Positions 6,142-55,107 of a DNA stretch of 64,000 nt are shown piece after piece. The DNA is from a virus (lineage: Duplodnaviria > Caudoviricetes). The stretch is from positions 549 to 64,548 of the IMG/VR virus record IMGVR_UViG_3300030376_006611. One strand, given 5' to 3'. Every line of letters begins with the position of its first letter. Position 1 is the first letter of the stretch. A program made the translations under genes and the position numbers. The notes beneath the pieces are model-generated. The model had not been told where the DNA came from. It saw only the letters and a program-made list of their open reading frames with translations, and made no database searches.

Positions 6142-7206
6142 ATGGAAGAGCAGGGAAACACAACTGCTGGCTTCGAGGTGTTTGACACACCAGAGGCCAT
6201 GATGGAGGCTGAGGCCCCACAACAACAAGAAGAACAATCATTTGACCAAGCACCAGCTCCAATGGAGGAGCCGCAAGGTCAAGAACAACCGCCTCAGGAA
6301 TCAGCATACGTTGACCCCGAGGCACCATCACAGCCTGAATTTACTGAGACTCAGTTGGATGATATGACCCTTATGTACCTGAGCGAAAAGCTCGGTAGAC
6401 AGGTGACGTCATTCGATGAGTTTAATCAGGTTCAGGAACAGCAGCAGGTTCTCGACGAAAGAGTCGATGCGATCTCTCGGTTTGTACAGGAGACAGGGCG
6501 TTCTCCTCAAGATTGGTTTGCGTATCAGTCGCTCGATCCACAGAATATGGACGACTCTACGGCTGTGCGCGTCAAGCTTGCTACCGACTACCCAGATCTC
6601 TCGTCTCAGGAGGTGAACATGCTGATGAAGAGCAAGTATGGTGTTGATAACGACCTCGCAACAGAGGAAGAGATCAATATCGCACGGCTCAATCTTAAAA
6701 TCGCGGCACAGGAGGCCCGTCAAGACATTGCCACCATCAGGGAGGAATACTTGGCACCCGATGTGTCTCAAGGTCAGGAGTCATTTGTCAATGACGATTG
6801 GATTAACAACATGTCCCAGGAGGTGGATGCACTGCAGGCTCTAGAGTTTGATGTCGCAGACGGCAAAACCTTCCAGTTCGCGTTGGATCAATCCTATCTG
6901 TCAGAGTTGAAGGACAAGCAGGCCAACCTCGATTCCTTTTTCGATCGCTTCGTTGATGACGATGGGAACTGGAATCACGATGAGCTTTCGTCAATGTTCG
7001 CTGTGCGTGACAACATTGATCGTATCGTGTCCTCGGCCTACCGCCAGGGCATGAGCGATGGTCAGCGCAACGTCGTGTCGCAAGCCGCAAACATTTCAAC
7101 CGCATCCCCTAATACACAGGGTATGCCACAACAAGAGAATCCTCTCGGCGCACAGGTCAAAAATATCCTGCGCGGTGGGGGCGGCTTCTCGTTTGGTAAC
7201 ATCTAA
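6142..7206 (+). CDS. Acidic scaffold-like protein preceding the major capsid protein
   Basis: E/Q/P-rich N-terminus, acidic helical body, position immediately before the capsid gene as in crAss-like phages. Confidence 0.6.
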   Translation: MEEQGNTTAGFEVFDTPEAMMEAEAPQQQEEQSFDQAPAPMEEPQGQEQPPQESAYVDPEAPSQPEFTETQLDDMTLMYLSEKLGRQVTSFDEFNQVQEQQQVLDERVDAISRFVQETGRSPQDWFAYQSLDPQNMDDSTAVRVKLATDYPDLSSQEVNMLMKSKYGVDNDLATEEEINIARLNLKIAAQEARQDIATIREEYLAPDVSQGQESFVNDDWINNMSQEVDALQALEFDVADGKTFQFALDQSYLSELKDKQANLDSFFDRFVDDDGNWNHDELSSMFAVRDNIDRIVSSAYRQGMSDGQRNVVSQAANISTASPNTQGMPQQENPLGAQVKNILRGGGGFSFGNI

Positions 7207-39815: not shown

Positions 39816-40181
39816 ATGAAACTCATATCAACCCTATGTGTATCCTTTGTATTGTTACTGGCGGCAGCCTTTGTAACGCCTGTAGAGGATAAAGAAATAT
39901 GCGGATCAGGAATCTGCGTAGTAGAGTTCAACGCAAGCTTTAACGCACAGAACAGTGTTCCATGGATCGAGAACCTAGACGACTGCGAGACTGCCCGTGT
40001 GGACATCGCTACTGCTCCAGACCTTCAGAAGAAGCACAAGATTGTTGTCGTCCCGACGATTGTTGTTTTCAACGAGGGAGAGGAGCAGGAGAGGTTTCAA
40101 GCGAACATCATGATGACGATGGATGCCACGATTGATGAGGTTCAAGAGGCGGTAGACGACATCATGCTCAATGACTTTTAA
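39816..40181 (+). CDS. Exported thioredoxin-fold protein lacking CxxC
   Basis: Signal-like N-terminus; VVEFNASFN (WCxxC replaced), cis-Pro motif VVPTIVVFNEGEEQERF. Confidence 0.62.
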   Translation: MKLISTLCVSFVLLLAAAFVTPVEDKEICGSGICVVEFNASFNAQNSVPWIENLDDCETARVDIATAPDLQKKHKIVVVPTIVVFNEGEEQERFQANIMMTMDATIDEVQEAVDDIMLNDF

Positions 40182-40420
40182 ACCCAAGTCACTTTGATCG
40201 TAAGGGCTATGTCCTTGAGGTCGTAGAACTCCGATCTCACCATCTTCTCAATGATCGGGTAGAGGTAGCAGTGAGCTACTTCCTCCTCACTTGTTTCCGT
40301 AAAGATTCTTTGAAAGCCGTTCTCGTTAATGCCTGCGTCAACGTGAATAAACTTAAAGTCCTTGGACACCACCGCCTTTACAATCTGGTGGTACTGACCC
40401 TCTGGCTTGTAATCATTCAT
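40178..40420 (-). CDS. Hypothetical protein (last gene of the minus-strand arm)
   Basis: Tracked ORF, converges on the late arm with a 4-nt overlap. Confidence 0.6.
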   Translation of the reverse strand: MNDYKPEGQYHQIVKAVVSKDFKFIHVDAGINENGFQRIFTETSEEEVAHCYLYPIIEKMVRSEFYDLKDIALTIKVTWV

Positions 40421-40584
40421 TCTTTGGGGACTGGTGGCTGCTGAGACAGCATTTGCAAAAAGTCGTACATGCTGATGAATCCATCACCATTAAAGTCAAT
40501 GCATGCTGCATGAGAGTCGGGGCTAATCGACTGACCAAAGTTTGCAAGGAGAAGGAGCAAGTCCATTATGTAAGTTGACCACAT
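40417..40584 (-). CDS. 55-aa dockerin/EF-hand-like protein, not in ORF track
   Basis: MWSTYIMDLLLLLANFGQ...DFNGDGFISMYDFLQML; ATGA overlap with the downstream gene. Confidence 0.65.
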   Translation of the reverse strand: MWSTYIMDLLLLLANFGQSISPDSHAACIDFNGDGFISMYDFLQMLSQQPPVPKE

Positions 40585-40613
40585 ACCCTAGGTACGGTAT
40601 ATGTTAAAAAAAG

Positions 40614-40874
40614 TTACGGAGTAACAACCCTTACCTTCAAGGAAAACACATTGGGTGTGCCTGTTTCAACAAGGGTGTACTCCATTCCCCTGTAATCGTA
40701 GTAAGTCACGCCCACTACAATCTCGTGCTCGAAGTGTGACACTGGGTGAGTACCATCCCAGATGGTGGGGATGACTAGATCACAGCTGTACTTTTCTGGT
40801 TGAACGAGTACGTTCTTTGGGGTTGTCATGCATCCAGCTAGAAACAAAGCTGGTGCTATGTGCAATAGTTTCAT
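40614..40874 (-). CDS. Predicted lipoprotein
   Basis: MKLLHIAPALFLAG-C lipobox. Confidence 0.65.
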   Translation of the reverse strand: MKLLHIAPALFLAGCMTTPKNVLVQPEKYSCDLVIPTIWDGTHPVSHFEHEIVVGVTYYDYRGMEYTLVETGTPNVFSLKVRVVTP

Positions 40875-40930
40875 GTAGCGAAGCTACATCAGCAGAGCAT
40901 TAAAATCAACGAAGCAACGTATAATGATGA

Positions 40931-41140
40931 TTATGTATCACTTTGTTTTTTGATGATCGAAAACCACTCTGGATCAAGCTTCTCTATGGGATCTATGAAC
41001 TCTTTATTGCAGTGATCATTGATCTCTTTCTGTTGTTCTGGGGTGTTTGTAACACAAACATTTGCGGCTTGGTACTTGGCGTTCTTCTCTAGGAGGGAGT
41101 CGATTTTGCGCTTCAATTTTTTGTGGCTATTTGTTTTCAT
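40931..41140 (-). CDS. Hypothetical protein
   Basis: Tracked ORF; TATCTTTA promoter-like motif upstream (41148-41155). Confidence 0.6.
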   Translation of the reverse strand: MKTNSHKKLKRKIDSLLEKNAKYQAANVCVTNTPEQQKEINDHCNKEFIDPIEKLDPEWFSIIKKQSDT

Positions 41141-41156
41141 GGACCGATAAAGATAG

Positions 41157-41651
41157 TCAATATCTTTGATCGTAATCCCAGACTCGGTATGACATTAACG
41201 ACTTGATATCGTGCAACTTAAGCATCGTGATGACATCCTGCCTATCTCTTCGGGTGTATTTTTTTAAGTAGGCATACCTCTTGTCATCCACCTTTTCATT
41301 GCGTACATGCTTCTCACAAAAAAAGGCGAGCTCATCGCGATCAACGATAGAGAACCCGCCCTCTTCTGGCATATCAAAAGCAATAATCGTAGCACCCCCG
41401 TACAGCCACCCTGGGTCTCCATTCACATTCTTGAACTCCACCCATATCTCATCTGGCAGGTTGTTTCCCTTTACATCAACACCCCATCGCTTACCGTCTC
41501 TATTGATGGCGAGCCAGTAGTCTATGTGCTTGTGTATGTCATCCTCTTTCTTGGCATGACCAACGAGTAAGCCCTTGTTCCTAGCGGCACGGGCAAATCT
41601 AACCTCAGCCACTCGGCCAGTGGTATTGGAGTACCGCCTCCTCTTATTCAT
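41157..41651 (-). CDS. PD-(D/E)xK nuclease-like protein
   Basis: HIDYWL...GVDVKG...IWVEFKNV.G..GW motif. Confidence 0.6.
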   Translation of the reverse strand: MNKRRRYSNTTGRVAEVRFARAARNKGLLVGHAKKEDDIHKHIDYWLAINRDGKRWGVDVKGNNLPDEIWVEFKNVNGDPGWLYGGATIIAFDMPEEGGFSIVDRDELAFFCEKHVRNEKVDDKRYAYLKKYTRRDRQDVITMLKLHDIKSLMSYRVWDYDQRY

Positions 41652-42322: not shown

Positions 42323-44143
42323 TTAATTTCCTGAAGAATCCACTCCTGTTGATAAGAAATCCGTAAATGCAGGCATCGTTCCCTTTTGCTCAAACTTAAT
42401 TGACTCAAACAGAGGTCGTTGTCTAGCCCACGAGAAAAAGCCTGTGTGGGAAAGATTCATTACAAGCTTGTATGGCTCGTCCAGCGGGGTAGGTCTACCG
42501 CCTGTCTCCGTCTCTCTGACCTTTCTGACGTGTAACTCGCTCAGCTTACGGATATTGTGGTCCGCCGATTGAACCTTTCGGTGAATCGTCATGAAGCAAT
42601 CCGCTCTGTTTACGAACTTTCCACCGCCCTCTGTATCCTCAGCATACGGAGCAACGGGCAATCCATCAGCCCCCTTGCGTCTCTGCGCCTCAGTAACGGC
42701 GTGCATGTTGAGCCACACGGCCACGTTGTTGGACTTGCTAAAAGTCAGGAACTCTGACGCCGCCTCGTAGTGGTAGTCATGCACACCGATGGAGGTATTG
42801 CGCATATCTAGCTTCAGGCTGTTGTAGGGGTCGATAAAGATTGCATCGACCTCTTGCTGTCGCATGATCTTCTCCATGAATACAATGATATCTGAGTAGG
42901 AGTACACGCTCTCGTTACTGATAACTACGAAGTGCTCCTGTACCCAGGCGTATGCCTTCTTGCGCTCGAAGTAGTTCATGTCTGCGACCTTCTTGTCCAT
43001 AGCGAACTGCATGAGCTGCATCTTGACGGATGCGGTCCTGTTCTCGCTGGAGTATATGATCCATTTCCACCCGTGTCTGATCGAGGCATTGGCGATAAGG
43101 TACAGGGCTGTAGTGGTCTTACCTACGTTGGAGTGCCCATTGATAATTACGAACTCCTTCTTGTATCGGAAGTACTCATCGAGGGCTGTGTCCCCTGTGT
43201 CAAGGCCAATTTCAATCTTGCCTTGAGAGTAGTCGTCAATCCATCTAAAGTCCTCGTCGTCGGACGACACGAAAGACATGTCCCCGTCGTTTATGAGCAT
43301 CTCGCGCTTAACGTTCTTCTCCTCGTCGATGAGGTCACGTATAGGCATGATCTTCCCGTTCTCAATGCCATCGCGGATCGTAAGCTTTGCCATCTCTGGC
43401 GAGTCGATATCTCTCTTGGAAATCTCCCTGAATAGGATACGTACCGCCTCGTCCTCCTCCATCTTCCCTGCACCGATGTATCCACCGCACAGTCTAGCCG
43501 CATCGAACAGCGTCCTGTGCTTGTCCCCGTCCTGTGCGTTGCGAATCATTCGCGCGGCCAGGTTGAGCTTCATGTAGTCAGTGTAGTCGTATGCCTCGTT
43601 GGTGGGGACCTGTGCCTCGGCACGCTCTGTAGTGAACGCCCCGAACTTCTTGCACTCGTCCTTGATGATGATATCTGGATCATGCGACTCCCAGCATGCG
43701 CGCGACTCGTTGATACCAGACTCGTCTAGCCCAAGCCCGTGTGTTCTTTCGAAGTACTTAATAAGGGCACGGAAGTGATCCCTGTGCCTCTCTGGGTTGG
43801 TGATCTGTACCAGCGCCTTGACGCCCTCTCCGCTAGGCGAAGTCCAGCATGAATGAATGAAATCATCCGTGGCAAGGGCCTTCTTGGTCGAGTCAACGTC
43901 AACGTGGTCAAAGTCCAGAACAATAAATCCCGAATGCTCGAAGAGCGCGTCATCGGCACGCGACGAAAACTCCCCGCTGAAACAAACAACGGGGAGCGCC
44001 TTTTTCTTCTCTTTGTTACCAGTTCTGACATCAGCTACTAGTGTACTCGATTTCCCATCTCGAATCCTCTCCAGAGCTAGCTGTAGTGGAATGTGATGCG
44101 GTGTTGTCTTGTCGAATACGTCTTTGAATATCGTTACTTGCAT
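42323..44143 (-). CDS. Primase-helicase (VirE-N/BT4734-like N-terminus plus DnaB-like SF4 helicase)
   Basis: SGFIVLDFDH, SPSGEGVKAL; Walker A GHSNVGKTT; FIDPYN; ATG at 44143 preferred over the tracked TTG at 44155. Confidence 0.78.
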   Translation of the reverse strand: MQVTIFKDVFDKTTPHHIPLQLALERIRDGKSSTLVADVRTGNKEKKKALPVVCFSGEFSSRADDALFEHSGFIVLDFDHVDVDSTKKALATDDFIHSCWTSPSGEGVKALVQITNPERHRDHFRALIKYFERTHGLGLDESGINESRACWESHDPDIIIKDECKKFGAFTTERAEAQVPTNEAYDYTDYMKLNLAARMIRNAQDGDKHRTLFDAARLCGGYIGAGKMEEDEAVRILFREISKRDIDSPEMAKLTIRDGIENGKIMPIRDLIDEEKNVKREMLINDGDMSFVSSDDEDFRWIDDYSQGKIEIGLDTGDTALDEYFRYKKEFVIINGHSNVGKTTTALYLIANASIRHGWKWIIYSSENRTASVKMQLMQFAMDKKVADMNYFERKKAYAWVQEHFVVISNESVYSYSDIIVFMEKIMRQQEVDAIFIDPYNSLKLDMRNTSIGVHDYHYEAASEFLTFSKSNNVAVWLNMHAVTEAQRRKGADGLPVAPYAEDTEGGGKFVNRADCFMTIHRKVQSADHNIRKLSELHVRKVRETETGGRPTPLDEPYKLVMNLSHTGFFSWARQRPLFESIKFEQKGTMPAFTDFLSTGVDSSGN

Positions 44144-44396
44144 TGTCTTGGGCAATCATTAAGAGAATCATGTATCCTGCCAGGTCCTGCAGGGTGTCTT
44201 CTGTGTCGTCGATTGGACCTGAGTTCTTGATGCGCTTTAGCTTGTCATCAATTCTTGCTTTAATGCTCGACACGGCATTTGCCTTCGAGAATATGTTGAG
44301 CGGATCCAAGGCCGCATCGCCATACCTCGCATTTTTTTGAAGCAGTAAGTCCTCTAACTTCTTGCACTTCGATTTAATTTTCTGTCTTGTGTTCAT
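44031..44396 (-). CDS. Nucleotide-modification-associated domain 1 (DUF1599-like) protein
   Basis: LLQKNARYG...RIDDKLKRI...DTLQDLAGY motif. Confidence 0.65.
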   Translation of the reverse strand: MNTRQKIKSKCKKLEDLLLQKNARYGDAALDPLNIFSKANAVSSIKARIDDKLKRIKNSGPIDDTEDTLQDLAGYMILLMIAQDNASNDIQRRIRQDNTASHSTTASSGEDSRWEIEYTSS

Positions 44397-46698: not shown

Positions 46699-47133
46699 TT
46701 AAGAAGAAGGCATTTGGTATCCAAGCCCTTCTATAAGCTTTTCCTCCATTTCTGTTAACAATCTTATGCATTTCTGCACCTCGATCAGCCTGTCGTGGGA
46801 TGTCAGCTTTGTGGATATGGGGTTGATATTCATTTCTTCAGCTAAATCCATGACAATCTTAGTGGCAAGAGAATACTTGCGCAGATAGTCGGGGGAGTGT
46901 AGCATCAGGCCGTTGTGTTCCTTGCGATGATGCACGAACGTCGAGTGGTCTTTGTTGAACAACTTGCCTATCTGAACAAGCGTAGCGTATGGTCGCATGG
47001 CATTGCCAAGCGCGGCCCTGCTCTCTACGAAGTATCTCAGTCGAGAGTTGTCTTCGATGACCTCGCCTGTTTCGGACTCAAACCTGATTCGTACGCCGCG
47101 AAGCATTGTCTCAACCTTTTGTTTTTGACTCAT
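46699..47133 (-). CDS. DnaA domain IV (C-terminal helix-turn-helix)-like DNA-binding protein
   Basis: SRLRYFVESR...TLVQIGKLFNKDHSTFVH matches the DnaA signature R.R..V..R...SL.EIG..F..DHTTV.H. Confidence 0.68.
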   Translation of the reverse strand: MSQKQKVETMLRGVRIRFESETGEVIEDNSRLRYFVESRAALGNAMRPYATLVQIGKLFNKDHSTFVHHRKEHNGLMLHSPDYLRKYSLATKIVMDLAEEMNINPISTKLTSHDRLIEVQKCIRLLTEMEEKLIEGLGYQMPSS

Positions 47134-47138
47134 GTGTT

Positions 47139-47549
47139 TTATTTGATGGTTTCTTTGATGAAGTATTGTGCGGCGAAGTATTCGCTCAACACGTCGAACA
47201 GCTCAACCACGCGACCAGAGAAGTTTCGGAAGGTTGTTGCGTTATCGAGGCGGTTCTCTTGTTCGATGCCGAGGTTGTCAAGCATCTCCTCCTGCTCAAG
47301 CATGGCCTCGATGTCTGATACAATCTCGGAGTTGAGTTCTTCTACCGCCTCCTTGAAGTTGTCGACGATAACGTCGGGCCCCATGAATGCCCACTCTTCA
47401 AGGCCATACTCGCGTATGTCAACAAGAATAATCTTGCGGGCAACCATGGCAGGTCTAACGTTATCGGGTAGGTACTCCTTGAGAAAGGAGTCAACCTTGT
47501 CCTGTGTTAGTGGTTTGGTAAGGAATCGAAATCCTTCGTCGTTAGTCAT
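47139..47549 (-). CDS. Acidic hypothetical protein
   Basis: Tracked ORF. Confidence 0.6.
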   Translation of the reverse strand: MTNDEGFRFLTKPLTQDKVDSFLKEYLPDNVRPAMVARKIILVDIREYGLEEWAFMGPDVIVDNFKEAVEELNSEIVSDIEAMLEQEEMLDNLGIEQENRLDNATTFRNFSGRVVELFDVLSEYFAAQYFIKETIK

Positions 47550-47688
47550 TGGCTTGTGTGTTTTTTTGTTTCAACAATTTTTTAATTAGTCTCTGCATCT
47601 TGCGCCTTCGGTGGCGCGGGGATCGTAGCTCGTCGTTGCCGAGCACTGAAGACATCTGCTTCGTACCCTGTCTGGTTTTCTTACCCAT
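47542..47688 (-). CDS. 48-aa basic hypothetical protein, not in ORF track
   Basis: MGKKTRQG...QKNTQAND fills the gap with short overlaps at both ends. Confidence 0.5.
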   Translation of the reverse strand: MGKKTRQGTKQMSSVLGNDELRSPRHRRRKMQRLIKKLLKQKNTQAND

Positions 47689-48073
47689 ATATCTTTGCTT
47701 TGGATGTGGTTAGAATTAAGAATGTTTTGCCGTCCACGTTGAAGTCCGTGTCTGTGAACCAATGCGGATTCTTGCGTGGGTTGTACTTGTACTGCGTCAG
47801 CACCTTCTCATCTACCTCCTCGAACGTAGGACTCTTGCGGTATTCGATGTCGAGATTGTCGCAGTCCACCCATGCACATACCGTCTTGTTAGCCCCCTCG
47901 AATATCTTGCGGGCGGTGGACTCTTGGTTGCCCAGCTTGCAGTTGTACATCTTGATGTTGCATTTCTCGGGGTCGTAGTAGTCTCGGTAGTGGCCATTCC
48001 TCTTGTCCACCACCTGCCAGTGCATGTAGTTCTTGCCCTTGGCCAAATGGAATCGTACTCTAAATCTTTTCAT
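47681..48073 (-). CDS. Conserved phage hypothetical protein (RFHLAKGKNYMHWQV)
   Basis: Recognisable motif; clean ORF. Confidence 0.7.
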   Translation of the reverse strand: MKRFRVRFHLAKGKNYMHWQVVDKRNGHYRDYYDPEKCNIKMYNCKLGNQESTARKIFEGANKTVCAWVDCDNLDIEYRKSPTFEEVDEKVLTQYKYNPRKNPHWFTDTDFNVDGKTFLILTTSKAKIYG

Positions 48074-48224
48074 CTTGTATTCGTAGTCTTTGTTTTGCTT
48101 CGTAGTCTCTGACCATGCAGTCGAGAATCATGTGGTCTTGTGGGTTGCGGTAGAGCTCGTACCTCTGCATCATGTTGTCGATGCGACGCTCAAGCTCATG
48201 CATGTATTCGTCAGTTAGTAGCAT
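48060..48224 (-). CDS. Small hypothetical protein
   Basis: MLLTDEYMHEL; start revised from 48311. Confidence 0.5.
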   Translation of the reverse strand: MLLTDEYMHELERRIDNMMQRYELYRNPQDHMILDCMVRDYEAKQRLRIQDEKI

Positions 48225-48343
48225 TCGCATTCGCATGGTTTGTGTGGTGGCCTTCCGTTCTTTGGTGGTTCGTATTTGTCGTAGTCGGTGACGCCACCAC
48301 AACAGGGGCATCTACCGCGCTTGATGTATTCTTCAATCTTCAT
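48215..48343 (-). CDS. 42-aa Cys-rich, probably zinc-binding peptide
   Basis: CPCCGG...CECEC. Confidence 0.5.
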   Translation of the reverse strand: MKIEEYIKRGRCPCCGGVTDYDKYEPPKNGRPPHKPCECECY

Positions 48344-48929
48344 TCTTGTTTTCTTCTTGGTCGTCAACCCCGTGGATACGGCACTCGAAATCCTTGTCAG
48401 CACACAGGTTCTTGAGTGCGTCTACTACAAAGGACTCTTCGTACTGACCAACTTTGTCGCGCATCCAGTCGAGGTCAAGCTCAGCATCGAGATGGATGTC
48501 TCGTGCGAATGTCACCTCGAAGTCACCGCAGTATTCATTCTCGCATACGTTGATGGTCTGCCCTTCGAGCTCAGCAACAGCATCATTGATGCCTGACTGC
48601 ACACCTTCACGGAAGATGGCGATGGCTACCGCCTTGGGGATGACGGGCATAGTAGGGGTGTCTTCACGAAGGCGGTCAAGGGCTGCTGTCTCTATCTTAA
48701 GACACTCTTTAAGGTTAGCAACCTCACGTTCGAGCATGACGATGTCGTCGTACTGACCCTGCACCTTGGCTTCGAGCTCTTGCACCTGCTTGGTCAGCGC
48801 CTCCTCACGTCCTGTCTGCTCTTGGGATTTGGCGATGGACTCAATGGTTTGCTTTGCAGTAGAGATAGCGTCCTCTGCGTAGCGGATGCTTGCTTCAAGC
48901 TCCTGCTTGGATTTCTGTATTGGATTCAT
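48333..48929 (-). CDS. Coiled-coil plus acidic early protein (start revised from 49091)
   Basis: MNPIQKSKQELE; ATGA overlap with the upstream ORF. Confidence 0.65.
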   Translation of the reverse strand: MNPIQKSKQELEASIRYAEDAISTAKQTIESIAKSQEQTGREEALTKQVQELEAKVQGQYDDIVMLEREVANLKECLKIETAALDRLREDTPTMPVIPKAVAIAIFREGVQSGINDAVAELEGQTINVCENEYCGDFEVTFARDIHLDAELDLDWMRDKVGQYEESFVVDALKNLCADKDFECRIHGVDDQEENKNED

Positions 48930-49120
48930 GGGTTGATAGGTTTTTTGAGTTTGAGTTTGAGTTGTTCTGATGCGTAGTTGATGTGTTTCTGCGTTGTAAC
49001 TGACACGATTCCAGGTAGTTGCTGTAACCTGTTGCCTTGGATGCGAGCGACAGGTGTCCCGTAGCTGACAACGTAGCCGTTGGTCGTCCATAGGTTTTGT
49101 TTGAATCGTGGGAATCTCAT
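48926..49120 (-). CDS. Early hypothetical protein (SYGTPVA...SVTTQKHIN family)
   Basis: Overlap-coupled; recalled phage motif. Confidence 0.6.
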   Translation of the reverse strand: MRFPRFKQNLWTTNGYVVSYGTPVARIQGNRLQQLPGIVSVTTQKHINYASEQLKLKLKKPINP

Positions 49121-49344
49121 GCTATTCCGTTTAGTTCTGCCTTGTCGGTCATTGTTCCATCGCGCTCAATCCACCCGTCGTCGATCAGGGCTGATGCGGT
49201 GCGTCCGTAGTGTCCTTGGAGGCTCCAAGCCATGCCTGTCTTGAGTAGCTCAGAGAACAGGCGAAGGGTTTGCTTGTCGTTGAGATGCCCCATCTCGTAG
49301 TCGATGATTCGGTTGGTTACGTCGTATGCTTTAGTGTTCTTCAT
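49117..49344 (-). CDS. Conserved early phage protein (AWSLQGHYGRTA..LI..G)
   Basis: Recognisable motif; start revised from 49368. Confidence 0.65.
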   Translation of the reverse strand: MKNTKAYDVTNRIIDYEMGHLNDKQTLRLFSELLKTGMAWSLQGHYGRTASALIDDGWIERDGTMTDKAELNGIA

Positions 49345-49573
49345 TGTCTGTAAATTTTGGGGATTCATTCATGATAAACTTGGACACGAGGTCCTCGATT
49401 TCGCTGACAACCTCGTCCACGTCGCCGTGTGTGAGGTCGTACTCCTTAATCATGAGGCGGGCTAGTTGTTGGTAGCCGCTTACGTCGAGGGTCTGGCCGT
49501 CGAGATTGTAGCCACGGTGGTTGAAGCAGTCACTAACGTAGCACCGCAGGTCGTATAAGGTTTCGTCAATCAT
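49331..49573 (-). CDS. Acidic early hypothetical protein
   Basis: Tracked ORF. Confidence 0.6.
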   Translation of the reverse strand: MIDETLYDLRCYVSDCFNHRGYNLDGQTLDVSGYQQLARLMIKEYDLTHGDVDEVVSEIEDLVSKFIMNESPKFTDNEEH

Positions 49574-49731
49574 TGTATGTTGTCGTTGTAAAGGTTTGAA
49601 AGGTCTTCGTACAGCTCCATCAGGTGCTGTTGAACGTCGAAGTCAGGGGTGTCTTGTAGCTCCATGTACTCCTCCATCCTGTCCATGAACACTGAACCGA
49701 TGGAGGCCATTGTCGCTGTCATGTTACTCAT
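49570..49731 (-). CDS. Small acidic early protein
   Basis: MSNMTATMAS; start revised from 49800. Confidence 0.5.
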   Translation of the reverse strand: MSNMTATMASIGSVFMDRMEEYMELQDTPDFDVQQHLMELYEDLSNLYNDNIQ

Positions 49732-49891
49732 TGTCTTCAAAGTATTCGTTATACAATTCGTCAATCTGTTCGTCAGCGATATCCTTGAGGTCTTCCTCAA
49801 TGGATTCGTAGACGTAGTGGTACATGGTCTTCCAATCCATACCCTGCACTACGCTTTCGATGTAGCGGTCAATCTTTTCTTCACGAGTCAT
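49724..49891 (-). CDS. 55-aa highly acidic early protein, not in ORF track
   Basis: MTREEKIDRY...EEDLKDIADEQIDELYNEYFEDNE. Confidence 0.65.
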   Translation of the reverse strand: MTREEKIDRYIESVVQGMDWKTMYHYVYESIEEDLKDIADEQIDELYNEYFEDNE

Positions 49892-50465
49892 AGCTGTCAG
49901 AGTTTTTGGGTTTGGGGATACGGAAAGCGTGAATCACGTAGTCGTCAACGTCGATGAAGGCGTGTTTGCCCATGTACACTTGATGGATGAAGTCAGTCAG
50001 TTGCTCAAGGTTGTCGATGGCATCCGTGGTGGTGTCCATCACATCGGAGGACACACGAGCCACCAAGGACATGCACAAGGGGGTGTAGTCCCATGCAGGG
50101 GAGGCATCGAGTTGGTCCCACGTCAACCAACAGGACTCGGTGGAGTCACTGCGGTTGGACATATCAAGCTCGATGATGCGGAACACCTCGACACTCACGT
50201 CATCCATGTTCTCTGCAACGTAGTCGTCGTGCTCCATGTCAGAGGGGACGCAAGCGTGGTAGTTCTCGTGGTCACGAGTGAGGGTGACGTAGATGTCCTC
50301 CTCTCGGTGGTCGATGTTGACACACATCTCATCCTTGCGGTAGCCGTCAAGGAGTTGCTTGACGTGCTTGTCTGCAAGCCCCCTGTCGGGGAAGAACTCA
50401 CAGGTGGTGTCGGAGTACCCTTCGAAGAGTCCTGCGACAGCGTGGATTACTGCGTACTGCTTCAT
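49881..50465 (-). CDS. Acidic early protein
   Basis: D/E-rich 194-aa ORF. Confidence 0.7.
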   Translation of the reverse strand: MKQYAVIHAVAGLFEGYSDTTCEFFPDRGLADKHVKQLLDGYRKDEMCVNIDHREEDIYVTLTRDHENYHACVPSDMEHDDYVAENMDDVSVEVFRIIELDMSNRSDSTESCWLTWDQLDASPAWDYTPLCMSLVARVSSDVMDTTTDAIDNLEQLTDFIHQVYMGKHAFIDVDDYVIHAFRIPKPKNSDSYDS

Positions 50466-50689
50466 TACTTGTAGGTTTTTTCGATGATGAGGTCAGATGC
50501 CTCGTCGATGTTGGAGATGAGTGTGGCAAGAGGGGTCTTGCATGAGTGCTTACCCTCCAAGGCGGCACATGACATACTCATCAGTTGTGCCACATCTCGG
50601 TGGCGACTGAAGTTGAGGATGAGGGTGACCTTGCTCAGGTCCTCTTGGATAGCTTCGGCAAGTTGCCGTGTGTTCATGTCTTGTAGCAT
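50465..50689 (-). CDS. Early hypothetical protein
   Basis: Preceded by the CAAACTTCAA leader motif. Confidence 0.65.
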   Translation of the reverse strand: MLQDMNTRQLAEAIQEDLSKVTLILNFSRHRDVAQLMSMSCAALEGKHSCKTPLATLISNIDEASDLIIEKTYK

Positions 50690-50720
50690 GATGGATTAAA
50701 TTGAAGTTTGTAAAAATTAG

Positions 50721-50848
50721 TAGCAGAGGGTGGAGTCGAACCACCACACCCCTCATGTTCGTTGCCATAAGCCCGTGGTAACGGGTGAAAGGAACCTTGA
50801 TTGGGATGCACACACCTCCTACATCCTCATGTAGTAAGTGTCACTGCC
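50721..50848 (-). ncRNA. 128-nt tRNA-like structured RNA (U0)
   Basis: Acceptor GGCAGTG/CTCTGCT plus A; T-arm GGTGG-TTCGACT-CCACC; 12-bp hairpin and long irregular arm in between; directly downstream of promoter P4. Confidence 0.62.
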
Positions 50849-50868
50849 ATTGTGGAAAAGCCTCGACA

Positions 50869-50901
50869 CAAAGATACGGAATTGATGTGGACAATTCCAA
50901 A
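50869..50901 (-). promoter_or_regulatory. Early promoter P4 (TTTGG...TATCTTTG) with DnaA-box-like spacer
   Basis: -7 at 50869-50876, -33 at 50897-50901, TTGTCCACA at 50886-50894. Confidence 0.75.
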
Positions 50902-50936
50902 TTTGTGTTGAAAAGATTTGTTAAAGGCTTGGTTAG

Positions 50937-51016
50937 AAGGGAGGTTGGGAATTGAACACAACTGCCATCCTTGGCGCCGTGTAGCACCTTGATGTACGCA
51001 CCGACTGCGCTCCCTT
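50937..51016 (-). ncRNA. 80-nt tRNA-like cloverleaf (U1)
   Basis: 7-bp AAGGGAG/CTCCCTT stem, CGCA/TGCG hairpin, interrupted central arm, T-like loop TTCAATT. Confidence 0.52.
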
Positions 51017-51027
51017 GAAAATCAAAG

Positions 51028-51094
51028 GGGAAGAGGTAGTATCCTATCTACACGCCTACATCTGACGTCAGCCCTGTAATATGCTGCTCTTCCC
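51028..51094 (-). ncRNA. 67-nt spacerless four-way cloverleaf (U2)
   Basis: 8-bp GGGAAGAG/CTCTTCCC stem plus CAGC(10)GCTG, ACGTC(7)GGCGT and GTAG(8)CTAC arms with no junction nucleotides; a G-U pair favours the minus strand. Confidence 0.55.
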
Positions 51095-51104
51095 TGAAAA
51101 AGGT

Positions 51105-51162
51105 GGGGGGAGGGCGTGACGTTTCACGCTTGCCTTACGATTGCATCCCGAAAGGTCCCCCC
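51105..51162 (-). ncRNA. 58-nt mini-cloverleaf (U3)
   Basis: 7-bp GGGGGGA/TCCCCCC stem enclosing CC-TTTC-GG, TGC(9)GCA and GCGTGA-AACG-TCACGC; followed by ACC. Confidence 0.48.
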
Positions 51163-51178
51163 TTGGTCAAACTTCAAA

Positions 51179-51388
51179 CTAACCAATACCGCTTACGATG
51201 TCCATCGCTTTGGTCATCGCATAAGTTCGCTGTTGCATGCCCGTCCCTGCACGTTGTGGGGATGGCAAGTACACGAAGGTAGAGAATGTTTTGTCATTCT
51301 CCAAGCCCTCGATTGAATATCCTTTCTCACCTCGCATGATGGCGTCCGCCATGGCGTTAGTGTGGTAAATCTTTTCTTGAAGTGTCAT
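51179..51388 (-). CDS. Early hypothetical protein
   Basis: Tracked ORF with the leader motif upstream. Confidence 0.65.
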   Translation of the reverse strand: MTLQEKIYHTNAMADAIMRGEKGYSIEGLENDKTFSTFVYLPSPQRAGTGMQQRTYAMTKAMDIVSGIG

Positions 51389-51525
51389 GTCTTCTGTTGT
51401 TTTGAAGTTTGATATTCGTCGTGTGCTTTCTCGACCGCTCTGTTCAGCATCTCTGCCTCTGCTCGGTCGATCGACTGCCCCTGCATGCGGGCAAGTTGGA
51501 TGATTACGTCTACGATGTCAGTCAT
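51385..51525 (-). CDS. 46-aa early protein, not in ORF track
   Basis: MTDIVDVIIQLARMQG; ATGA overlap downstream. Confidence 0.55.
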   Translation of the reverse strand: MTDIVDVIIQLARMQGQSIDRAEAEMLNRAVEKAHDEYQTSKQQKT

Positions 51526-51700
51526 GGTTGTGTCTGCTTGTTGGTGTAATTTCCATGGTTACGTCCCATGTGGCTTGGCAGTCCTCGCATTCGAAGTCGT
51601 GGCACTGCTGTACCCAACCTCCTGCGCTGAATCCTGTTTCTTGTGAGCCGAGGAAGATTCCCTCGCCTCCGCACTTGTGGCATTTATTTTGTTGTGTCAT
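51518..51700 (-). CDS. Zinc-ribbon early protein (start revised from 51796)
   Basis: CHKCGG...CEDC. Confidence 0.6.
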   Translation of the reverse strand: MTQQNKCHKCGGEGIFLGSQETGFSAGGWVQQCHDFECEDCQATWDVTMEITPTSRHNHD

Positions 51701-51891
51701 TTGTCTGTTGTTTCTGCTCCCCACCACGCAATCTCTTCGTCGTGGATGCGGAACTCGTGGCATTCTTGCAGTTCGTTTTCCCATACCCCGACCCACACGC
51801 CGTGGTCGTCAGGTGCTCCCTGTATATGGGCGGCTTGGAATCCTTTTTTTTGCAGTGCTTTGACTGCACGTTCGCATTGTTCTTGTGTCAT
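51697..51891 (-). CDS. Early hypothetical protein
   Basis: ATGA overlaps on both sides. Confidence 0.6.
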   Translation of the reverse strand: MTQEQCERAVKALQKKGFQAAHIQGAPDDHGVWVGVWENELQECHEFRIHDEEIAWWGAETTDK

Positions 51892-52217
51892 AGGTCAATG
51901 ATTACGCCCTTGTCTTTGAGGGCATTGATGATGTAGTCAGGGAGTTCGAAGCATCCGTCGTAGCCAACGAGTCGTGCCGACTTGTTCCCACCTTGTGGGT
52001 CTTGGTCGAAGTCAACTTCGAGGCATCCTTCTGCATAGAAGCGGTCCCCTCCTGTTTCGAGGTCATAGGTTTCGTACCACCCGCCCATGCCGTGGTCGGG
52101 GTCAACCTCGATGGTGGTGTCCATCTCCACGTTAGTGGCTCGGTCGAGGTCAATGTCCATGGATGTGGTCATAGCTACATGTGGTAGCGTGTGTTTGAAG
52201 TCGTGCTTGAATTTCAT
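51888..52217 (-). CDS. Acidic early protein (G.WYE...FYAEG.L...GYDGCFELP family)
   Basis: Motif; overlap-coupled. Confidence 0.65.
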   Translation of the reverse strand: MKFKHDFKHTLPHVAMTTSMDIDLDRATNVEMDTTIEVDPDHGMGGWYETYDLETGGDRFYAEGCLEVDFDQDPQGGNKSARLVGYDGCFELPDYIINALKDKGVIIDL

Positions 52218-52444
52218 GCTTCGGGGGTTTCGATTTGGTCAGCGAGGAACACCAACTCGTCGATGATTGCGCCAACGTGTTCAGCGTCAGCGTCAGGCAT
52301 CATTGTGAGGAGGGAGGCAAAGCCCTTCACGTCCTTGGGTACGAGCCGAGCGCACCGATTCAGGTTGTTCAGCCGAGCGCCAAAGTGAAAGTCATTGAGG
52401 AAGAGGACTGCGCGTCCTACGGGTTGTTCAAAGAAGTTGTCCAT
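52214..52444 (-). CDS. Early hypothetical protein
   Basis: First gene after promoter P3. Confidence 0.65.
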   Translation of the reverse strand: MDNFFEQPVGRAVLFLNDFHFGARLNNLNRCARLVPKDVKGFASLLTMMPDADAEHVGAIIDELVFLADQIETPEA

Positions 52445-52468
52445 TGTATTGGGGTTTGAAGTTCGGTG

Positions 52469-52500
52469 TAAAGATACAGCAATTTGTGGATGAATCCAAA
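52469..52500 (-). promoter_or_regulatory. Early promoter P3 (TTTGG...TATCTTTA) with DnaA-box-like spacer
   Basis: Near-copy of P4 including upstream TTAACAAATCTTTTCAAC; TCATCCACA at 52485-52493. Confidence 0.72.
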
Positions 52501-52526
52501 TTCCTGTTGAAAAGATTTGTTAATGC

Positions 52527-52691
52527 TCAGTAGTCACGGGTTGTGATGCCGAACATCCGCAGGTCAATGTAGATGTCCTCGTCCCATGCGTCCTCGATGA
52601 GGCGCAACGCCTCCCTGTCGTCCGTGTATGTGAAGTTTTCGTACGCGAGGATTTTCTCCTCCGCGTTCAGTTCTCTGAATGGATTAAACAT
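52527..52691 (-). CDS. 54-aa acidic early protein (start revised from 52745)
   Basis: MFNPFRELNAEE with the leader motif upstream. Confidence 0.6.
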   Translation of the reverse strand: MFNPFRELNAEEKILAYENFTYTDDREALRLIEDAWDEDIYIDLRMFGITTRDY

Positions 52692-52725
52692 TTGCTTGAA
52701 GTTTGATGGTGTAACTATCTGATTG

Positions 52726-52872
52726 TCAGGCCTTCCACACCTCATCCAACATCCAACCTTTCGTGCGTTCGATGTGTGTGATGAAGTTTGCGATGTGCCT
52801 CCCGTCCTCGAAGTCTCGGGTCATTGACCATTTCTTACCGCAGGACATGATGAATTGAATTGTAGCTCTCAT
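52726..52872 (-). CDS. 48-aa early protein, not in ORF track
   Basis: MRATIQFIMSCGKKWSMTRDFEDGRHIANFI; ATGA overlap upstream. Confidence 0.6.
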   Translation of the reverse strand: MRATIQFIMSCGKKWSMTRDFEDGRHIANFITHIERTKGWMLDEVWKA

Positions 52873-52973
52873 TTGTCTAATTTATTGAGTGCATAGTCCA
52901 CGAGGACGACGAACAGCGCTCCGCTCACGAATACCACCGCGAACGATACGAGCAGGACTACCGCCTCGCTCAT
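52869..52973 (-). CDS. 34-aa single-helix membrane peptide
   Basis: MSEAVVLLVSFAVVFVSGALFVVLVDYALNKLDK. Confidence 0.6.
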   Translation of the reverse strand: MSEAVVLLVSFAVVFVSGALFVVLVDYALNKLDK

Positions 52974-53092
52974 GACTGCTTGCGCTTGGCGTTGGACATT
53001 GCATCCATAGCCATGCCCGTGAGCATGATGATGCCGACTACACCACACGCTCCTGCGAGCACGAGGTTGATGTTGAAAAGGACCTGAATCAT
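52970..53092 (-). CDS. 40-aa single-helix membrane peptide, not in ORF track
   Basis: MIQVLFNINLVLAGACGVVGIIMLTGMAMDAMSNAKRKQS; leader motif upstream, ATGA overlap downstream. Confidence 0.6.
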   Translation of the reverse strand: MIQVLFNINLVLAGACGVVGIIMLTGMAMDAMSNAKRKQS

Positions 53093-53152
53093 TGTGTATA
53101 GGTTTGAAGTTTGACACAGACGCCTCACGGCGTTTCGCGCAATCAGCGCTCG

Positions 53153-53323
53153 TCAGTGTGCCTGTGTGCCGATGAGGTCAGCCAAGGTCAGGTCATCGTC
53201 TCCGAATTTGGTGGCAACCTCGGTGAGCGTGTACTCTACAGGGAATCCGAAGTCAAGGAGTTGGGTCAAGGCTTTGACGCGCTCTTGTCGCGCCGTGGTG
53301 GGGGTTGATGCTTTGTTTGGCAT
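53153..53323 (-). CDS. 56-aa early protein (start revised from 53374)
   Basis: First gene after promoter P2. Confidence 0.6.
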   Translation of the reverse strand: MPNKASTPTTARQERVKALTQLLDFGFPVEYTLTEVATKFGDDDLTLADLIGTQAH

Positions 53324-53343
53324 GGTGTTGAAGTTTGATGGTT

Positions 53344-53375
53344 GCAAGATACAACCGAATTGTGGATAAACCAAA
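53344..53375 (-). promoter_or_regulatory. Early promoter P2 (TTTGG...TATCTTGC) containing a perfect DnaA box
   Basis: TTATCCACA at 53361-53369. Confidence 0.7.
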
Positions 53376-54123: not shown

Positions 54124-54171
54124 GGGTAAAAAGTTTGAAGTTTGTTCGATTCGACCGCCGAACCGATGACC

Positions 54172-54203
54172 CAAAGATAGGGAAATCAAACCCTGATGTC
54201 AAG
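54172..54203 (-). promoter_or_regulatory. Early promoter P1 (TTG...TATCTTTG)
   Basis: CAAAGATA on the plus strand at 54172-54179 with TTG about 20 nt upstream. Confidence 0.65.
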
Positions 54204-54464
54204 CCAACGGATGTTAACGTCAGCAATGACGGGGGATGCAGAGCCAAAGTTATACGAGGTTATGTTCATTGTGTGTACCCATGAGCGGGGATGCATGGTT
54301 GCAGTAAAGGTAGAGGTGAGGTATTGTCCCACCTTCGGGTAGAGCTACATGTCTGCGGTCACCTGATGCGATGATGGAAGTAACGATGCGTAAGTCACTG
54401 GGAGACAAGCGATTGCAATCTCAGAAGTAAATCTCCGTAGTATGGCAGAATCAAGGGAGGGGGG

Positions 54465-54485
54465 TTTGGAAATGTAATTTCCAAA
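54465..54485. repeat. Perfect 9-bp inverted repeat TTTGGAAAT-GTA-ATTTCCAAA
   Basis: Seen directly; lies in the non-coding divergence region. Confidence 0.85.
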
Positions 54486-54682
54486 AGATTTGCGTCTGTA
54501 CATACATACATATAATCCCCCCTATGCTTAGTTCTGATCGTTTTTTTCGACCCAAAACCGAAAAAACAGCCGATATCTGCAGAAATTTTCACGCGGTATT
54601 TTTTGATTGACTCCACTCAACCCCTCATAACTGTCTGATTTAGAGGTAAAAGCGGTATTTAACCTCTAGTAGAGCTTGAATC

Positions 54683-54714
54683 TTGACATTTAAAGATTTC
54701 TGTTATAACTTTGC
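54683..54714 (+). promoter_or_regulatory. Plus-strand promoter (TTGACA...TAACTTTGC) starting the late arm
   Basis: TAnnTTTG at 54706-54713, TTG upstream. Confidence 0.6.
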
Positions 54715-54813
54715 TATCCAATCAAGTGCAAAACAGTCGAAATAGTAGGGTGTGTGTATACACATTACACCATCCGATCTAGATTTAACTGTTAAATACG
54801 GGATAGCTGTACA

Positions 54814-55107
54814 ATGAGACTAAGTAAGCGCAAGAAACCACACTCTGCACCGCGTCAAGGGACTAGAAAGAACCCAGATGGGTCTGAGTCTACGCATTTG
54901 TATGCGACAGAGACCTTAGACGGTAAGAATTGGGTTAGCTTCCCCACTCTATTTCAGAATCAGGACGGATCGTGGCTAGATATGTCTCAGGGCAACTGGG
55001 AGGATGCCTATAGAGAAGCAGAAAAAAGAGGGGAGGTGATTGACTTCGGCAGAAGAAAGAATAAAGCACTAGCTTTTGGTGAGGGTAGCTGGAAGGGGGA
55101 TCAATAA
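54814..55107 (+). CDS. Conserved phage hypothetical protein (STHL...FPTLF...GE.I.F...A.AF..GSWK)
   Basis: Motif; first gene of the plus arm. Confidence 0.65.
   Translation: MRLSKRKKPHSAPRQGTRKNPDGSESTHLYATETLDGKNWVSFPTLFQNQDGSWLDMSQGNWEDAYREAEKRGEVIDFGRRKNKALAFGEGSWKGDQ

What the first reader, a model, noticed from the sequence alone, without database searches (positions are those of the whole stretch)
46699..53375. DnaA-box-like 9-mers inside early promoters plus a phage-encoded DnaA domain-IV protein
Seen: P2, P3 and P4 each carry a 9-mer at the same position between the -33 and -7 elements: TTATCCACA (53361-53369, perfect), TCATCCACA (52485-52493) and TTGTCCACA (50886-50894). A further TTTTCCACA (50851-50859) fits TTWTNCACA just downstream of P4. 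ORF 46699-47133 keeps the DnaA recognition-helix signature (IGKLFNKDHSTFVH) but has no AAA+ domain. Known: DnaA domain IV binds TTWTNCACA and represses promoters that contain boxes. Inference: a circuit in which host DnaA and/or the phage mini-DnaA times early transcription, or the promoters titrate host DnaA to block host replication.
Basis: partly seen in the sequence, partly recalled or inferred. Interest (0 to 1): 0.76.

Follow-up and report, generated by a model that had tools for sequence, protein, structure and literature searches.

The report
Phage mini-DnaA and DnaA-box-like promoters
A marine Bacteroidota phage encodes a small protein made only of the DNA-reading domain of the replication initiator DnaA, and three of its four early promoters carry a conserved DnaA-box-like element. 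Nothing here shows that the protein binds those elements, and related phages keep the gene without them.

Summary

The ORF 46699-47133(-) is a true stand-alone DnaA domain-IV protein:
- The model has pLDDT 93, and its four best PDB matches are all DnaA domain IV (Z 10.5-8.1).
- The DnaA base-contact residues are kept.
- There is no AAA+ domain.

DnaA boxes are not enriched in the genome (3 found, 5.2 expected). The core TnnTCCACA is nevertheless invariant in every P2-P4 copy seen (window, two related viral genomes, marine metagenome contigs; 6, 8 and 9 distinct variants), while the flanks vary. It is absent from P1 and from the late promoters, so it is not a general spacer feature. The extra TTTTCCACA downstream of P4 is not conserved.

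More than 20 syntenic relatives keep the gene, with the same recognition residues, but have hairpins or ribozymes where P2-P4 lie and no excess of boxes.

Most likely (about 0.35), the protein binds DnaA-box DNA, with host boxes as its general target, and in this sub-lineage it also shuts off the early promoters. Binding is untested.

This is a new variant of a known kind, of moderate interest.

The parts
46699..47133 (-). mini-DnaA gene (P0001, 144 aa), a stand-alone DnaA domain-IV protein
   Evidence: Translation. Pfam Bac_DnaA_C scores 21.2 bits, below the 31.5 cut-off. Of 40 family members, 22 hit Bac_DnaA_C, best E 4e-13. The family profile hits PDB DnaA-IV chains 3pvp (1.2e-5) and 1j1v (1.1e-4).
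46837..47109 (-). residues 9-99: DnaA domain-IV fold
   Evidence: AF2 mean pLDDT 93.4. VIA-align: 3pvp Z 10.5 (rmsd 2.4, 91 aa), 1j1v Z 10.1, 1l8q Z 8.9, 8btg Z 8.1; the next unrelated chain scores 6.2.
46927..46953 (-). recognition-helix signature K61-D-H-S-T-F-V-H-H69, aligned to E. coli DnaA R432-D433-H434-T435-T436-V437-L438-H439-A440
   Evidence: HMMER alignment to 1j1v. Conservation in the family: D62 31/40, H63 35/40, T65 31/40, H68 31/40. R31 (36/40) aligns to R399 and R39 (39/40) to R407.
46723..46800 (-). extra C-terminal helix (residues 112-137) with no counterpart in DnaA; possible oligomerisation helix (inference)
   Evidence: Secondary structure of the model. This region is variable in the family alignment.
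53344..53375 (-). early promoter P2 (TTTG, 20-nt spacer, TATCTTGC) with the box TTATCCACA at 53361-53369
   Evidence: In relatives the box reads TTATCCACA or TTTTCCACA.
52469..52500 (-). early promoter P3 (TTTG, 20-nt spacer, TATCTTTA) with TCATCCACA at 52485-52493
   Evidence: The stretch from -33 to the box is invariant in 8 distinct variants.
50869..50901 (-). early promoter P4 (TTTG, 21-nt spacer, TATCTTTG) with TTGTCCACA at 50886-50894; the box lies in the loop of a 7-bp inverted repeat GGAATTG/CAATTCC
   Evidence: Invariant in 9 distinct variants.
52505..52521 (-). upstream element AACAAATCTTTTCAACA, shared by P3 and P4
   Evidence: 2 copies, 0.29 expected. The second copy is at 50906-50922.
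50906..50922 (-). second copy of the upstream element (P4)
   Evidence: repeat family D13.
50851..50859 (-). TTTTCCACA downstream of P4; not conserved, probably incidental
   Evidence: It lies at the left junction of a roughly 150-nt insertion that is absent from L017 and L030. Other variants read TTTCAGCAA or TTTTACAAA at this place.
54174..54202 (-). early promoter P1 (TTGACA, 17 nt, TATCTT) without a box; serves as an internal control
47139..47549 (-). upstream neighbour gene (136 aa, all-helical). Together with mini-DnaA it forms a fast-evolving two-gene patch.
   Evidence: 24-35% identity in relatives whose flanking genes are 72-88% identical. The fold search gave no informative match.

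Best explanation
ORF 46699-47133 encodes a 'mini-DnaA'. It consists of the DNA-binding domain IV of DnaA plus one extra C-terminal helix, and has no ATPase or helicase-recruiting domains. It keeps the arginines and the D-H-S/T-T-x-x-H helix with which DnaA reads its 9-bp box, so it most likely binds DnaA-box-like DNA but cannot build an initiation complex (inferred).

In this phage sub-lineage, three of the four host-type early promoters carry a constrained TnnTCCACA element at about -28 to -20, inside the spacer. A protein bound there would block RNA polymerase (inferred).

The gene lies about 3.7 kb downstream of P4 on the same strand, with no other recognisable promoter in between. The most likely circuit is therefore negative feedback. 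Early transcription makes mini-DnaA, which occupies the boxes, alone or in competition with host DnaA, and shuts P2-P4 down.

More than 20 syntenic relatives keep the gene and its recognition residues but have no boxes on their genomes. The general target of the family must therefore lie elsewhere. The simplest candidate is the host's own DnaA boxes (oriC and the DnaA regulon), where the protein would act as a competitor of host DnaA. On this reading, promoter control is a later addition in this lineage.

Shown here: the fold, the conserved contact residues, and the position and conservation of the promoter element. Inferred: all DNA binding, the sign of regulation and the host target.
For: - Fold: pLDDT 93.4. 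The four best PDB matches are all DnaA-IV, Z 10.5-8.1, then a drop to 6.2.
- Family-level sequence support.
- Contact residues are aligned to DnaA and conserved.
- TnnTCCACA is invariant in 9 copies from 3 genomes and in 6, 8 and 9 distinct metagenome variants of P2, P3 and P4, while the flanks vary. The only change inside a box is A/T at position 3 of P2, which is the degenerate W of TTWTNCACA.
- The element is absent from P1 and from the late promoters.
- The gene is on the same strand, downstream of P4.
- A 7-position conserved motif matching the DnaA box, in a phage that also encodes a DnaA-IV protein, is unlikely by chance (about 1e-4 per motif and register; my estimate).
Against: - No binding data exist.
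- Relatives have the same recognition residues but no box-bearing promoters. Five complete related genomes have only 1-3 consensus boxes each, and there is no excess in 30 loci.
- P3 and P4 are paralogous copies, and all P-type genomes are one close lineage, so gene-box co-occurrence amounts to a single evolutionary event.
- P3 and P4 each miss the strict consensus by one base.
- No enrichment of boxes in the genome.
- Unrelated viral contigs have TCCACA-bearing promoters of the same layout without any DnaA_C protein.
- P0001 alone is below the Pfam cut-off.
Confidence: 0.35

Rival explanations
1. The TnnTCCACA element is a functional promoter element read by something else. Candidates are another phage factor (for example the basic, lineage-specific product of the box-less P1 transcript acting as activator of P2-P4), a host factor, or RNA polymerase itself. 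On this reading the likeness to a DnaA box is coincidence, and mini-DnaA acts elsewhere.
For: - The core is only 6-7 fixed bases.
- It is as invariant as the -7 element and sits at a fixed distance from it, as an activator site or polymerase contact would.
- P1 lacks it, which fits a two-step early cascade.
- Relatives with the same mini-DnaA recognition residues lack it.
- Similar promoters occur in unrelated viruses that have no DnaA_C protein.
Against: - All seven invariant positions match the DnaA-box consensus. The only variation seen inside a box is at the consensus's own degenerate position.
- The same genome encodes a DnaA-IV protein.
- No other DNA-binding regulator was recognised among 20 early-region proteins.
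Confidence: 0.3
2. Host DnaA, not the phage protein, is the relevant binder. The early promoters read the host's DnaA level or nucleotide state and so couple early transcription to the host's replication status. Mini-DnaA has a separate, host-directed role, for example blocking oriC or lifting DnaA repression.
For: - Host DnaA is present at the moment of infection, whereas P0001 is not.
- P2 carries a perfect consensus box.
- DnaA is an established transcription factor at box-containing promoters (general knowledge; restated in PMC11870628).
- Box-in-spacer promoters exist in viruses without a DnaA_C gene.
Against: - Repression of its own early promoters by an abundant host protein would handicap the phage.
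- Related phages do without boxes.
- Neither the host nor its box consensus is known here.
Confidence: 0.2
3. Mini-DnaA is the origin-binding subunit of the phage's own replication system. It would recruit the PrimPol-DnaB-type helicase encoded 2.5 kb downstream, and the boxes would mark origin(s) activated by transcription.
For: - The gene sits at the head of a conserved replication and recombination module: a phrog_11717 protein, a PD-(D/E)XK exonuclease and a PrimPol-DnaB fusion.
- It has the DnaA-IV fold.
Against: - There is no cluster of boxes or iterons anywhere in the window.
- Relatives with the same recognition residues have 1-3 scattered boxes.
- The protein evolves much faster (32-49% identity) than the replication genes next to it (72-88%), which is unusual for an origin-initiator pair unless the origin co-varies.
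Confidence: 0.1
4. The promoters act as a sink that titrates host DnaA and blocks host replication.
For: Boxes multiply as the phage genome replicates, and datA-type titration is known in E. coli (general knowledge).
Against: - There are only three constrained boxes per genome, and two of them are imperfect.
- There is no enrichment, and relatives lack the boxes altogether.
Confidence: 0.03

Closest known systems
DnaA domain IV (Pfam PF08299 Bac_DnaA_C; PDB 1J1V E. coli, 3PVP M. tuberculosis)
   Same: Same fold over residues 9-99 (Z 10.1-10.5, rmsd 2.3-2.4 A). Equivalents of R399, R407, D433, H434, T436 and H439 are kept.
   Different: - It stands alone: no domains I-III and only 144 aa.
- It has an extra C-terminal helix.
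- T435 is Ser and P423 is Val.
- There are family-specific invariant residues H73 and Y83.
- Identity to DnaA is 14-17%, and P0001 alone is below the Pfam cut-off.
DnaA as autoregulator and transcription factor at box-containing promoters (dnaA promoter of E. coli and B. subtilis; lambda pR)
   Same: A DnaA-type box is placed in or next to a promoter, and the regulator gene lies in the unit it would control.
   Different: Here the candidate regulator has no ATP switch, the promoters are of Bacteroidota -33/-7 type, and no binding has been shown.
Cro-type early shut-off repressors of phages (lambda Cro, Mu Ner)
   Same: A small helix-turn-helix protein encoded in the early operon, with presumed sites overlapping the early promoters. 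The logic is negative feedback.
   Different: Unrelated fold. The sites are single, non-palindromic 9-mers rather than dyad operators. The function is inferred only.
Bac_DnaA_C-like C-terminal domains of TnpA(REP)/RAYT-related Y1 HUH proteins (PMC6006769)
   Same: DnaA-IV-like domains used outside the initiator as a DNA-targeting module.
   Different: Those are fused to a nuclease and are cellular. This one is a free-standing viral protein.

Membership tests
DnaA domain IV superfamily (PF08299) | Helical fold of domain IV with the helix-turn-helix and basic loop | tested here: met
   The four best PDB matches are all DnaA-IV: 3pvp Z 10.5 (91 aa, 2.4 A), 1j1v Z 10.1, 1l8q Z 8.9 and 8btg Z 8.1. 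The next chain scores 6.2. Model pLDDT is 93.4.
DnaA domain IV superfamily (PF08299) | Significant sequence or profile match | tested here: inconclusive
   P0001 alone scores 21.2 bits against a 31.5-bit cut-off, E 3e-4. Of 40 homologues, 22 match, best E 4e-13. The family profile matches PDB DnaA-IV at 1.2e-5.
DnaA domain IV superfamily (PF08299) | Box-contacting residues (E. coli R399, R407, D433, H434, T435, H439) | tested here: met
   R31, R39, D62, H63, S64 and H68 align to them. They are among the most conserved columns and are kept in all syntenic alleles. T435 is Ser, Ala or Thr.
DnaA replication initiator (TIGR00362) | AAA+ ATPase domain III and N-terminal domain I | tested here: not met
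   The protein is 144 aa and has no AAA+ or NCBIfam DnaA hit. All 84 homologue clusters are 74-243 aa.
DnaA box (TTWTNCACA) | Match to the 9-bp consensus | tested here: inconclusive
   P2 (53361) and the 50851 site match. P3 and P4 each have one mismatch.
DnaA box (TTWTNCACA) | Bound by a DnaA-IV domain | not testable with these tools
   This needs EMSA, footprinting or ChIP.
DnaA box (TTWTNCACA) | Clustering or enrichment as at oriC, datA or DARS | tested here: not met
   3 found against 5.2 expected, and 13 against 14.3. There is no cluster.
Bacteroidota sigma-A promoter (-33 TTTG / -7 TAnnTTTG) | Both elements present with a 19-21 nt spacer, upstream of a gene | tested here: met
   P4 is perfect. 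P3 has TATCTTTA and P2 has TATCTTGC. Spacers are 20, 20 and 21 nt.
Bacteroidota sigma-A promoter (-33 TTTG / -7 TAnnTTTG) | Mapped transcription start | not testable with these tools
   No RNA data are available.
Regulator-operator pair (co-variation across genomes) | Gene and sites occur together in independent lineages | tested here: not met
   The gene is present in at least 20 syntenic relatives that have no box promoters. The sites occur only in one close lineage.

The most novel reading that the evidence does not exclude
Marine Bacteroidota phages carry a previously undescribed, fast-evolving family of truncated initiators consisting of DnaA domain IV only. These would mimic the host initiator at its own boxes. 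They would block host oriC and the DnaA regulon as a take-over device, and in at least one lineage they would have been wired into the phage's early promoters as a timer.
Probability: 0.25. Interest if true: 0.75.

Novelty: new variant of a known kind. Interest (0 to 1): 0.55.

Why it matters
DnaA is the universal bacterial initiator. Phages are known to interfere with it through partner proteins, but I found no described phage protein that copies only its DNA-reading domain.

A free domain IV would be a simple competitive inhibitor of initiation and a ready-made transcription factor.

The family appears to be viral only. It was not found in PHROGs, GenBank phages or the GTDB genomes scanned. 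It also evolves much faster than its neighbours, as host-interaction proteins often do.

If the promoter link holds, it would be a compact example of a phage re-using the host initiator's recognition code to time its own early genes, in a phylum whose phage regulation is almost unknown.

Tried and rejected
- **Genome-wide enrichment or clustering of DnaA boxes.** None found.
- **Iterons or an origin-like repeat cluster** in the large intergenic regions 54150-54850 and 40150-41200, and tandem repeats. Nothing box-like.
- **Depletion of TCCACA as a sign of avoidance.** Not significant: z -1.7 in the window and -0.4 in relatives.
- **Co-occurrence in relatives.** Negative.
- **Collection scan for the promoter pattern** (TTTG, box, GTATCTT). 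38 stretches, about the chance level by my estimate. Only the two close relatives are kin. Five unrelated hit records have no DnaA_C protein.
- **Single-sequence searches.** phmmer of P0001 against PDB found nothing. Foldseek E-values were weak, though DnaA-IV chains were the only low-rmsd rows. No hit in PHROGs, NCBIfam, tblastn against GenBank phages or the GTDB genome scan with one peptide pattern (a weak negative).
- **Neighbour gene 47139-47549.** Folded (pLDDT 85) and searched. Only generic helical-bundle matches with Z up to 6.6, so there is no evidence that it is a DnaA domain I or helicase-loader analogue.
- **Rfam on 50400-51500 and 53000-53300.** No match.
- **Literature.** No paper found on a phage-encoded stand-alone DnaA domain IV.


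Full report
**Setting**

The window is nearly all of a 64.5-kb IMG/VR virus record that CheckV rates as complete. It has 48% G+C and no close relative among GenBank phages.

Genes from about 41.1 to 54.2 kb run on the minus strand. They form an early and replication block that ends in a PD-(D/E)XK exonuclease, a PrimPol-DnaB-type helicase and an endonuclease. The promoter type (TTTG at -33, TAnnTTTG at -7) points to a Bacteroidota host. Related copies come largely from marine metagenomes, including TARA samples.

**The observation**

P2, P3 and P4 read TTTG, a 20-, 20- or 21-nt spacer, then TATCTT[GC/TA/TG]. The 9-mer begins 2-3 nt after TTTG, and TCCACA ends 8-9 nt before TATCTT. The element therefore occupies roughly -28 to -20.

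Only P2 and the 50851 site fit TTWTNCACA strictly. P3 and P4 are one mismatch away.

Counted over the whole window the motif is not enriched:
- TTWTNCACA: 3 found, 5.2 expected.
- TTATCCACA with up to 1 mismatch: 13 found, 14.3 expected.
- TCCACA: 26 found, 39.5 expected.
- No 1-kb cluster stands out.

The signal is positional, not numerical.

**Constraint on the element**

Two related viral genomes (mini-DnaA 88% identical) keep P2, P3 and P4. In the 9-copy alignment the only invariant blocks are T(T)G of -33, TnnTCCACA and TATCTT.

I then scanned metagenomes with the upstream 19-mer, which does not include the box. Together with the window and the related viral loci, this gave 6, 8 and 9 distinct variants of P2, P3 and P4. 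The six P2 variants include one that the classifying script listed apart, because it carries a 1-nt insertion between the box and -7.
- Substitutions fall just upstream of -33, and between the box and -7.
- None falls in TCCACA or in the T three bases before it.
- The single change inside a box is A/T at position 3 of P2, which is the degenerate W of the DnaA consensus.

P3 and P4 are paralogues and also share AACAAATCTTTTCAACA upstream. P2 shares only the three blocks.

The element is not a general promoter feature. P1 (TTGACA, 17 nt, TATCTT; 54174-54202) and about a dozen late TATATTTG promoters lack it.

The fourth site, TTTTCCACA at 50851, lies at the junction of a roughly 150-nt tRNA-like insertion that two relatives lack. 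In other variants it reads TTTCAGCAA or TTTTACAAA. I treat it as incidental.

**The protein**

P0001 (144 aa) alone scores 21.2 bits on Bac_DnaA_C, below the 31.5-bit cut-off. The supporting evidence comes from its family and its predicted fold:
- An exhaustive HMMER search found 84 clusters of homologues, all 74-243 aa.
- Of the 40 aligned members, 22 hit Bac_DnaA_C, best E 4e-13.
- Their profile hits the DnaA domain-IV chains 3pvp, 1j1v, 2hcb and 1l8q at E 1e-5 to 2e-4.
- The AlphaFold model is confident (pLDDT 93.4).
- An all-against-representatives structure search puts four DnaA-IV entries on top (Z 10.5, 10.1, 8.9 and 8.1; rmsd 2.3-3.9 A over 88-97 residues). The next, unrelated chain scores 6.2.

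Foldseek E-values were weak, but the DnaA chains were the only low-rmsd rows.

In the HMMER alignment, R31 and R39 fall on E. coli R399 and R407, and D62-H63-S64-T65 and H68 fall on D433-H434-T435-T436 and H439. I derived the E. coli numbering from the chain sequence and recall the role of these residues from the 1J1V literature. These are among the most conserved columns of the family.

Residues 112-137 form an extra helix, and there is no AAA+ domain.

The family looks viral. I did not find it in PHROGs, NCBIfam, GenBank phages or one pattern scan of GTDB genomes.

**The co-occurrence test**

A profile-guided scan of viral contigs returned 25 further loci. About twenty of them (L036-L055) belong to the same phage group:
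- Gene order is identical.
- The neighbours are 72-88% identical (helicase, exonuclease, phrog_11717 protein).
- Mini-DnaA is only 32-49% identical, and the gene just upstream only 24-35%.

The gene thus sits in a fast-evolving two-gene patch inside a conserved module.

All alleles keep the recognition residues. Yet these relatives have no P-type promoters. At the positions of P3 and P4 they carry long hairpins with the loop CTGAACGTAGTGAAG, or hammerhead-like ribozymes, followed by the shared leader CAAACTTCAA. Their loci show no excess of DnaA boxes. Five complete genomes have 1-3 consensus boxes each, about the same as a reversed-pattern control.

Gene and boxes therefore go together only in the window's own close lineage, which counts as one evolutionary event. 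Conversely, unrelated viral contigs with a box-in-spacer promoter of the same layout encode no DnaA_C protein.

**Interpretation**

Three statements are solid:
1. The phage encodes a stand-alone DnaA-IV protein with an intact box-reading surface.
2. Three of the four early promoters carry a constrained element whose seven fixed positions all agree with the DnaA box.
3. The gene family does not need such promoters.

A seven-position conserved motif would match the DnaA box by chance at about 1e-4 per register. I therefore think recognition by a DnaA-type domain, whether the phage's, the host's or both, is more likely than not. It is not shown.

The best single model is this:
- The family binds DnaA-box DNA.
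- Its general target is on the host (oriC and the DnaA regulon), where a domain IV without the ATPase would act as a competitor.
- In this lineage, boxes in the promoter spacers let the protein close P2-P4, the promoters that drive its own expression.

I give the whole model 0.35. The rivals are:
- Another factor or the polymerase reads the element, and the likeness to a DnaA box is coincidence (0.3).
- Host DnaA is the relevant binder (0.2).
- The protein is the phage's origin-binding protein (0.1).
- The promoters titrate host DnaA (0.03).

**Comparison with known systems**

By fold and contact residues the protein belongs to the DnaA-IV superfamily. It is not a DnaA, because the defining ATPase domain and domain I are absent.

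Functionally the nearest analogues are DnaA autoregulation at box-containing promoters and Cro-type early shut-off repressors.

DnaA-IV-like domains outside DnaA are known as fusions in Y1 HUH proteins (PMC6006769). I found no paper on a free-standing phage version.

**Verdict**

This is a new variant of a known kind, with interest 0.55. One bench experiment, a footprint of P0001 on P2-P4, would settle the central question.

Noticed in passing
window 53114-53162 (-); also L048 3249-3318, L038 3171-3240, L053 1836-1907 and 2445-2514: A type-I hammerhead-like ribozyme lies between the first and second genes after P2. It has stem I GGCACA/UGUGUC, the core CUGACGA, a 4-bp stem II, GAAA, a 5-bp stem III and then GUC. 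Five copies from four phages fold to the same three-way junction, with compensatory changes in 5 of 15 pairs. The predicted cut leaves a 5' end 5 nt before the early-gene leader CAAACTTCAA. Rfam scores only the L048 copy (23.4 bits, gathering cut-off 34).
   Followed up: partly
L048 ~3000-3080, 4000-4078, 4970-5050, 6215-6295; L039 1495-1545; L052 190-240: In related phages, the positions that P3 and P4 occupy in the window hold long, nearly perfect hairpins with the conserved loop CTGAACGTAGTGAAG, followed by the leader CAAACTTCAA. Promoter, ribozyme and hairpin may be three ways of placing an RNA 5' end just before the leader. Their nature (processing site, promoter for another polymerase, or operator) is unknown.
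   Followed up: no
window 50700-50860 (-): The 128-nt tRNA-like RNA downstream of P4 is an insertion. Two close relatives join P4 directly to the leader, and metagenome variants show at least three different inserts at this spot. L053 and L039 carry similar T-arm-bearing units upstream of the same gene. ARAGORN and Rfam find nothing here.
   Followed up: partly
window 46699-47549 (-) compared with L036-L055: Mini-DnaA and the gene upstream of it are 24-49% identical between phages whose flanking replication genes are 72-88% identical. This is a hypervariable patch, as seen for specificity or host-interaction modules.
   Followed up: partly
whole window: The palindromes ATCGAT, CTCGAG, CATATG and GAATTC are completely absent (13-31 copies expected; z -4.5 to -7.5). 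Several other 6-bp palindromes are strongly depleted, which suggests restriction-site avoidance.
   Followed up: no
window 42323-44155 (-): A 610-aa fusion of a BT4734-like/PrimPol-type N-terminal domain with a DnaB-like helicase C-terminal domain. It is probably the phage's primase-helicase.
   Followed up: no
window 54465-54485: A perfect 9-bp palindrome, TTTGGAAAT-TAC-ATTTCCAAA, lies in the large intergenic region upstream of P1. It is preceded by AAATCTTTT, which echoes the AAATCTTTTCAACA...TTTGGAA layout of P3 and P4.
   Followed up: no
L083, L085, L087, L090, L094 (metagenome 3300045988): Unrelated AT-rich viral contigs carry an intergenic promoter-like site, TTTGAATTTATCCACAAAAAAGTGTATCTT, with a perfect TTATCCACA in the spacer. 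One such record, 98% complete, has no DnaA_C protein.
   Followed up: partly
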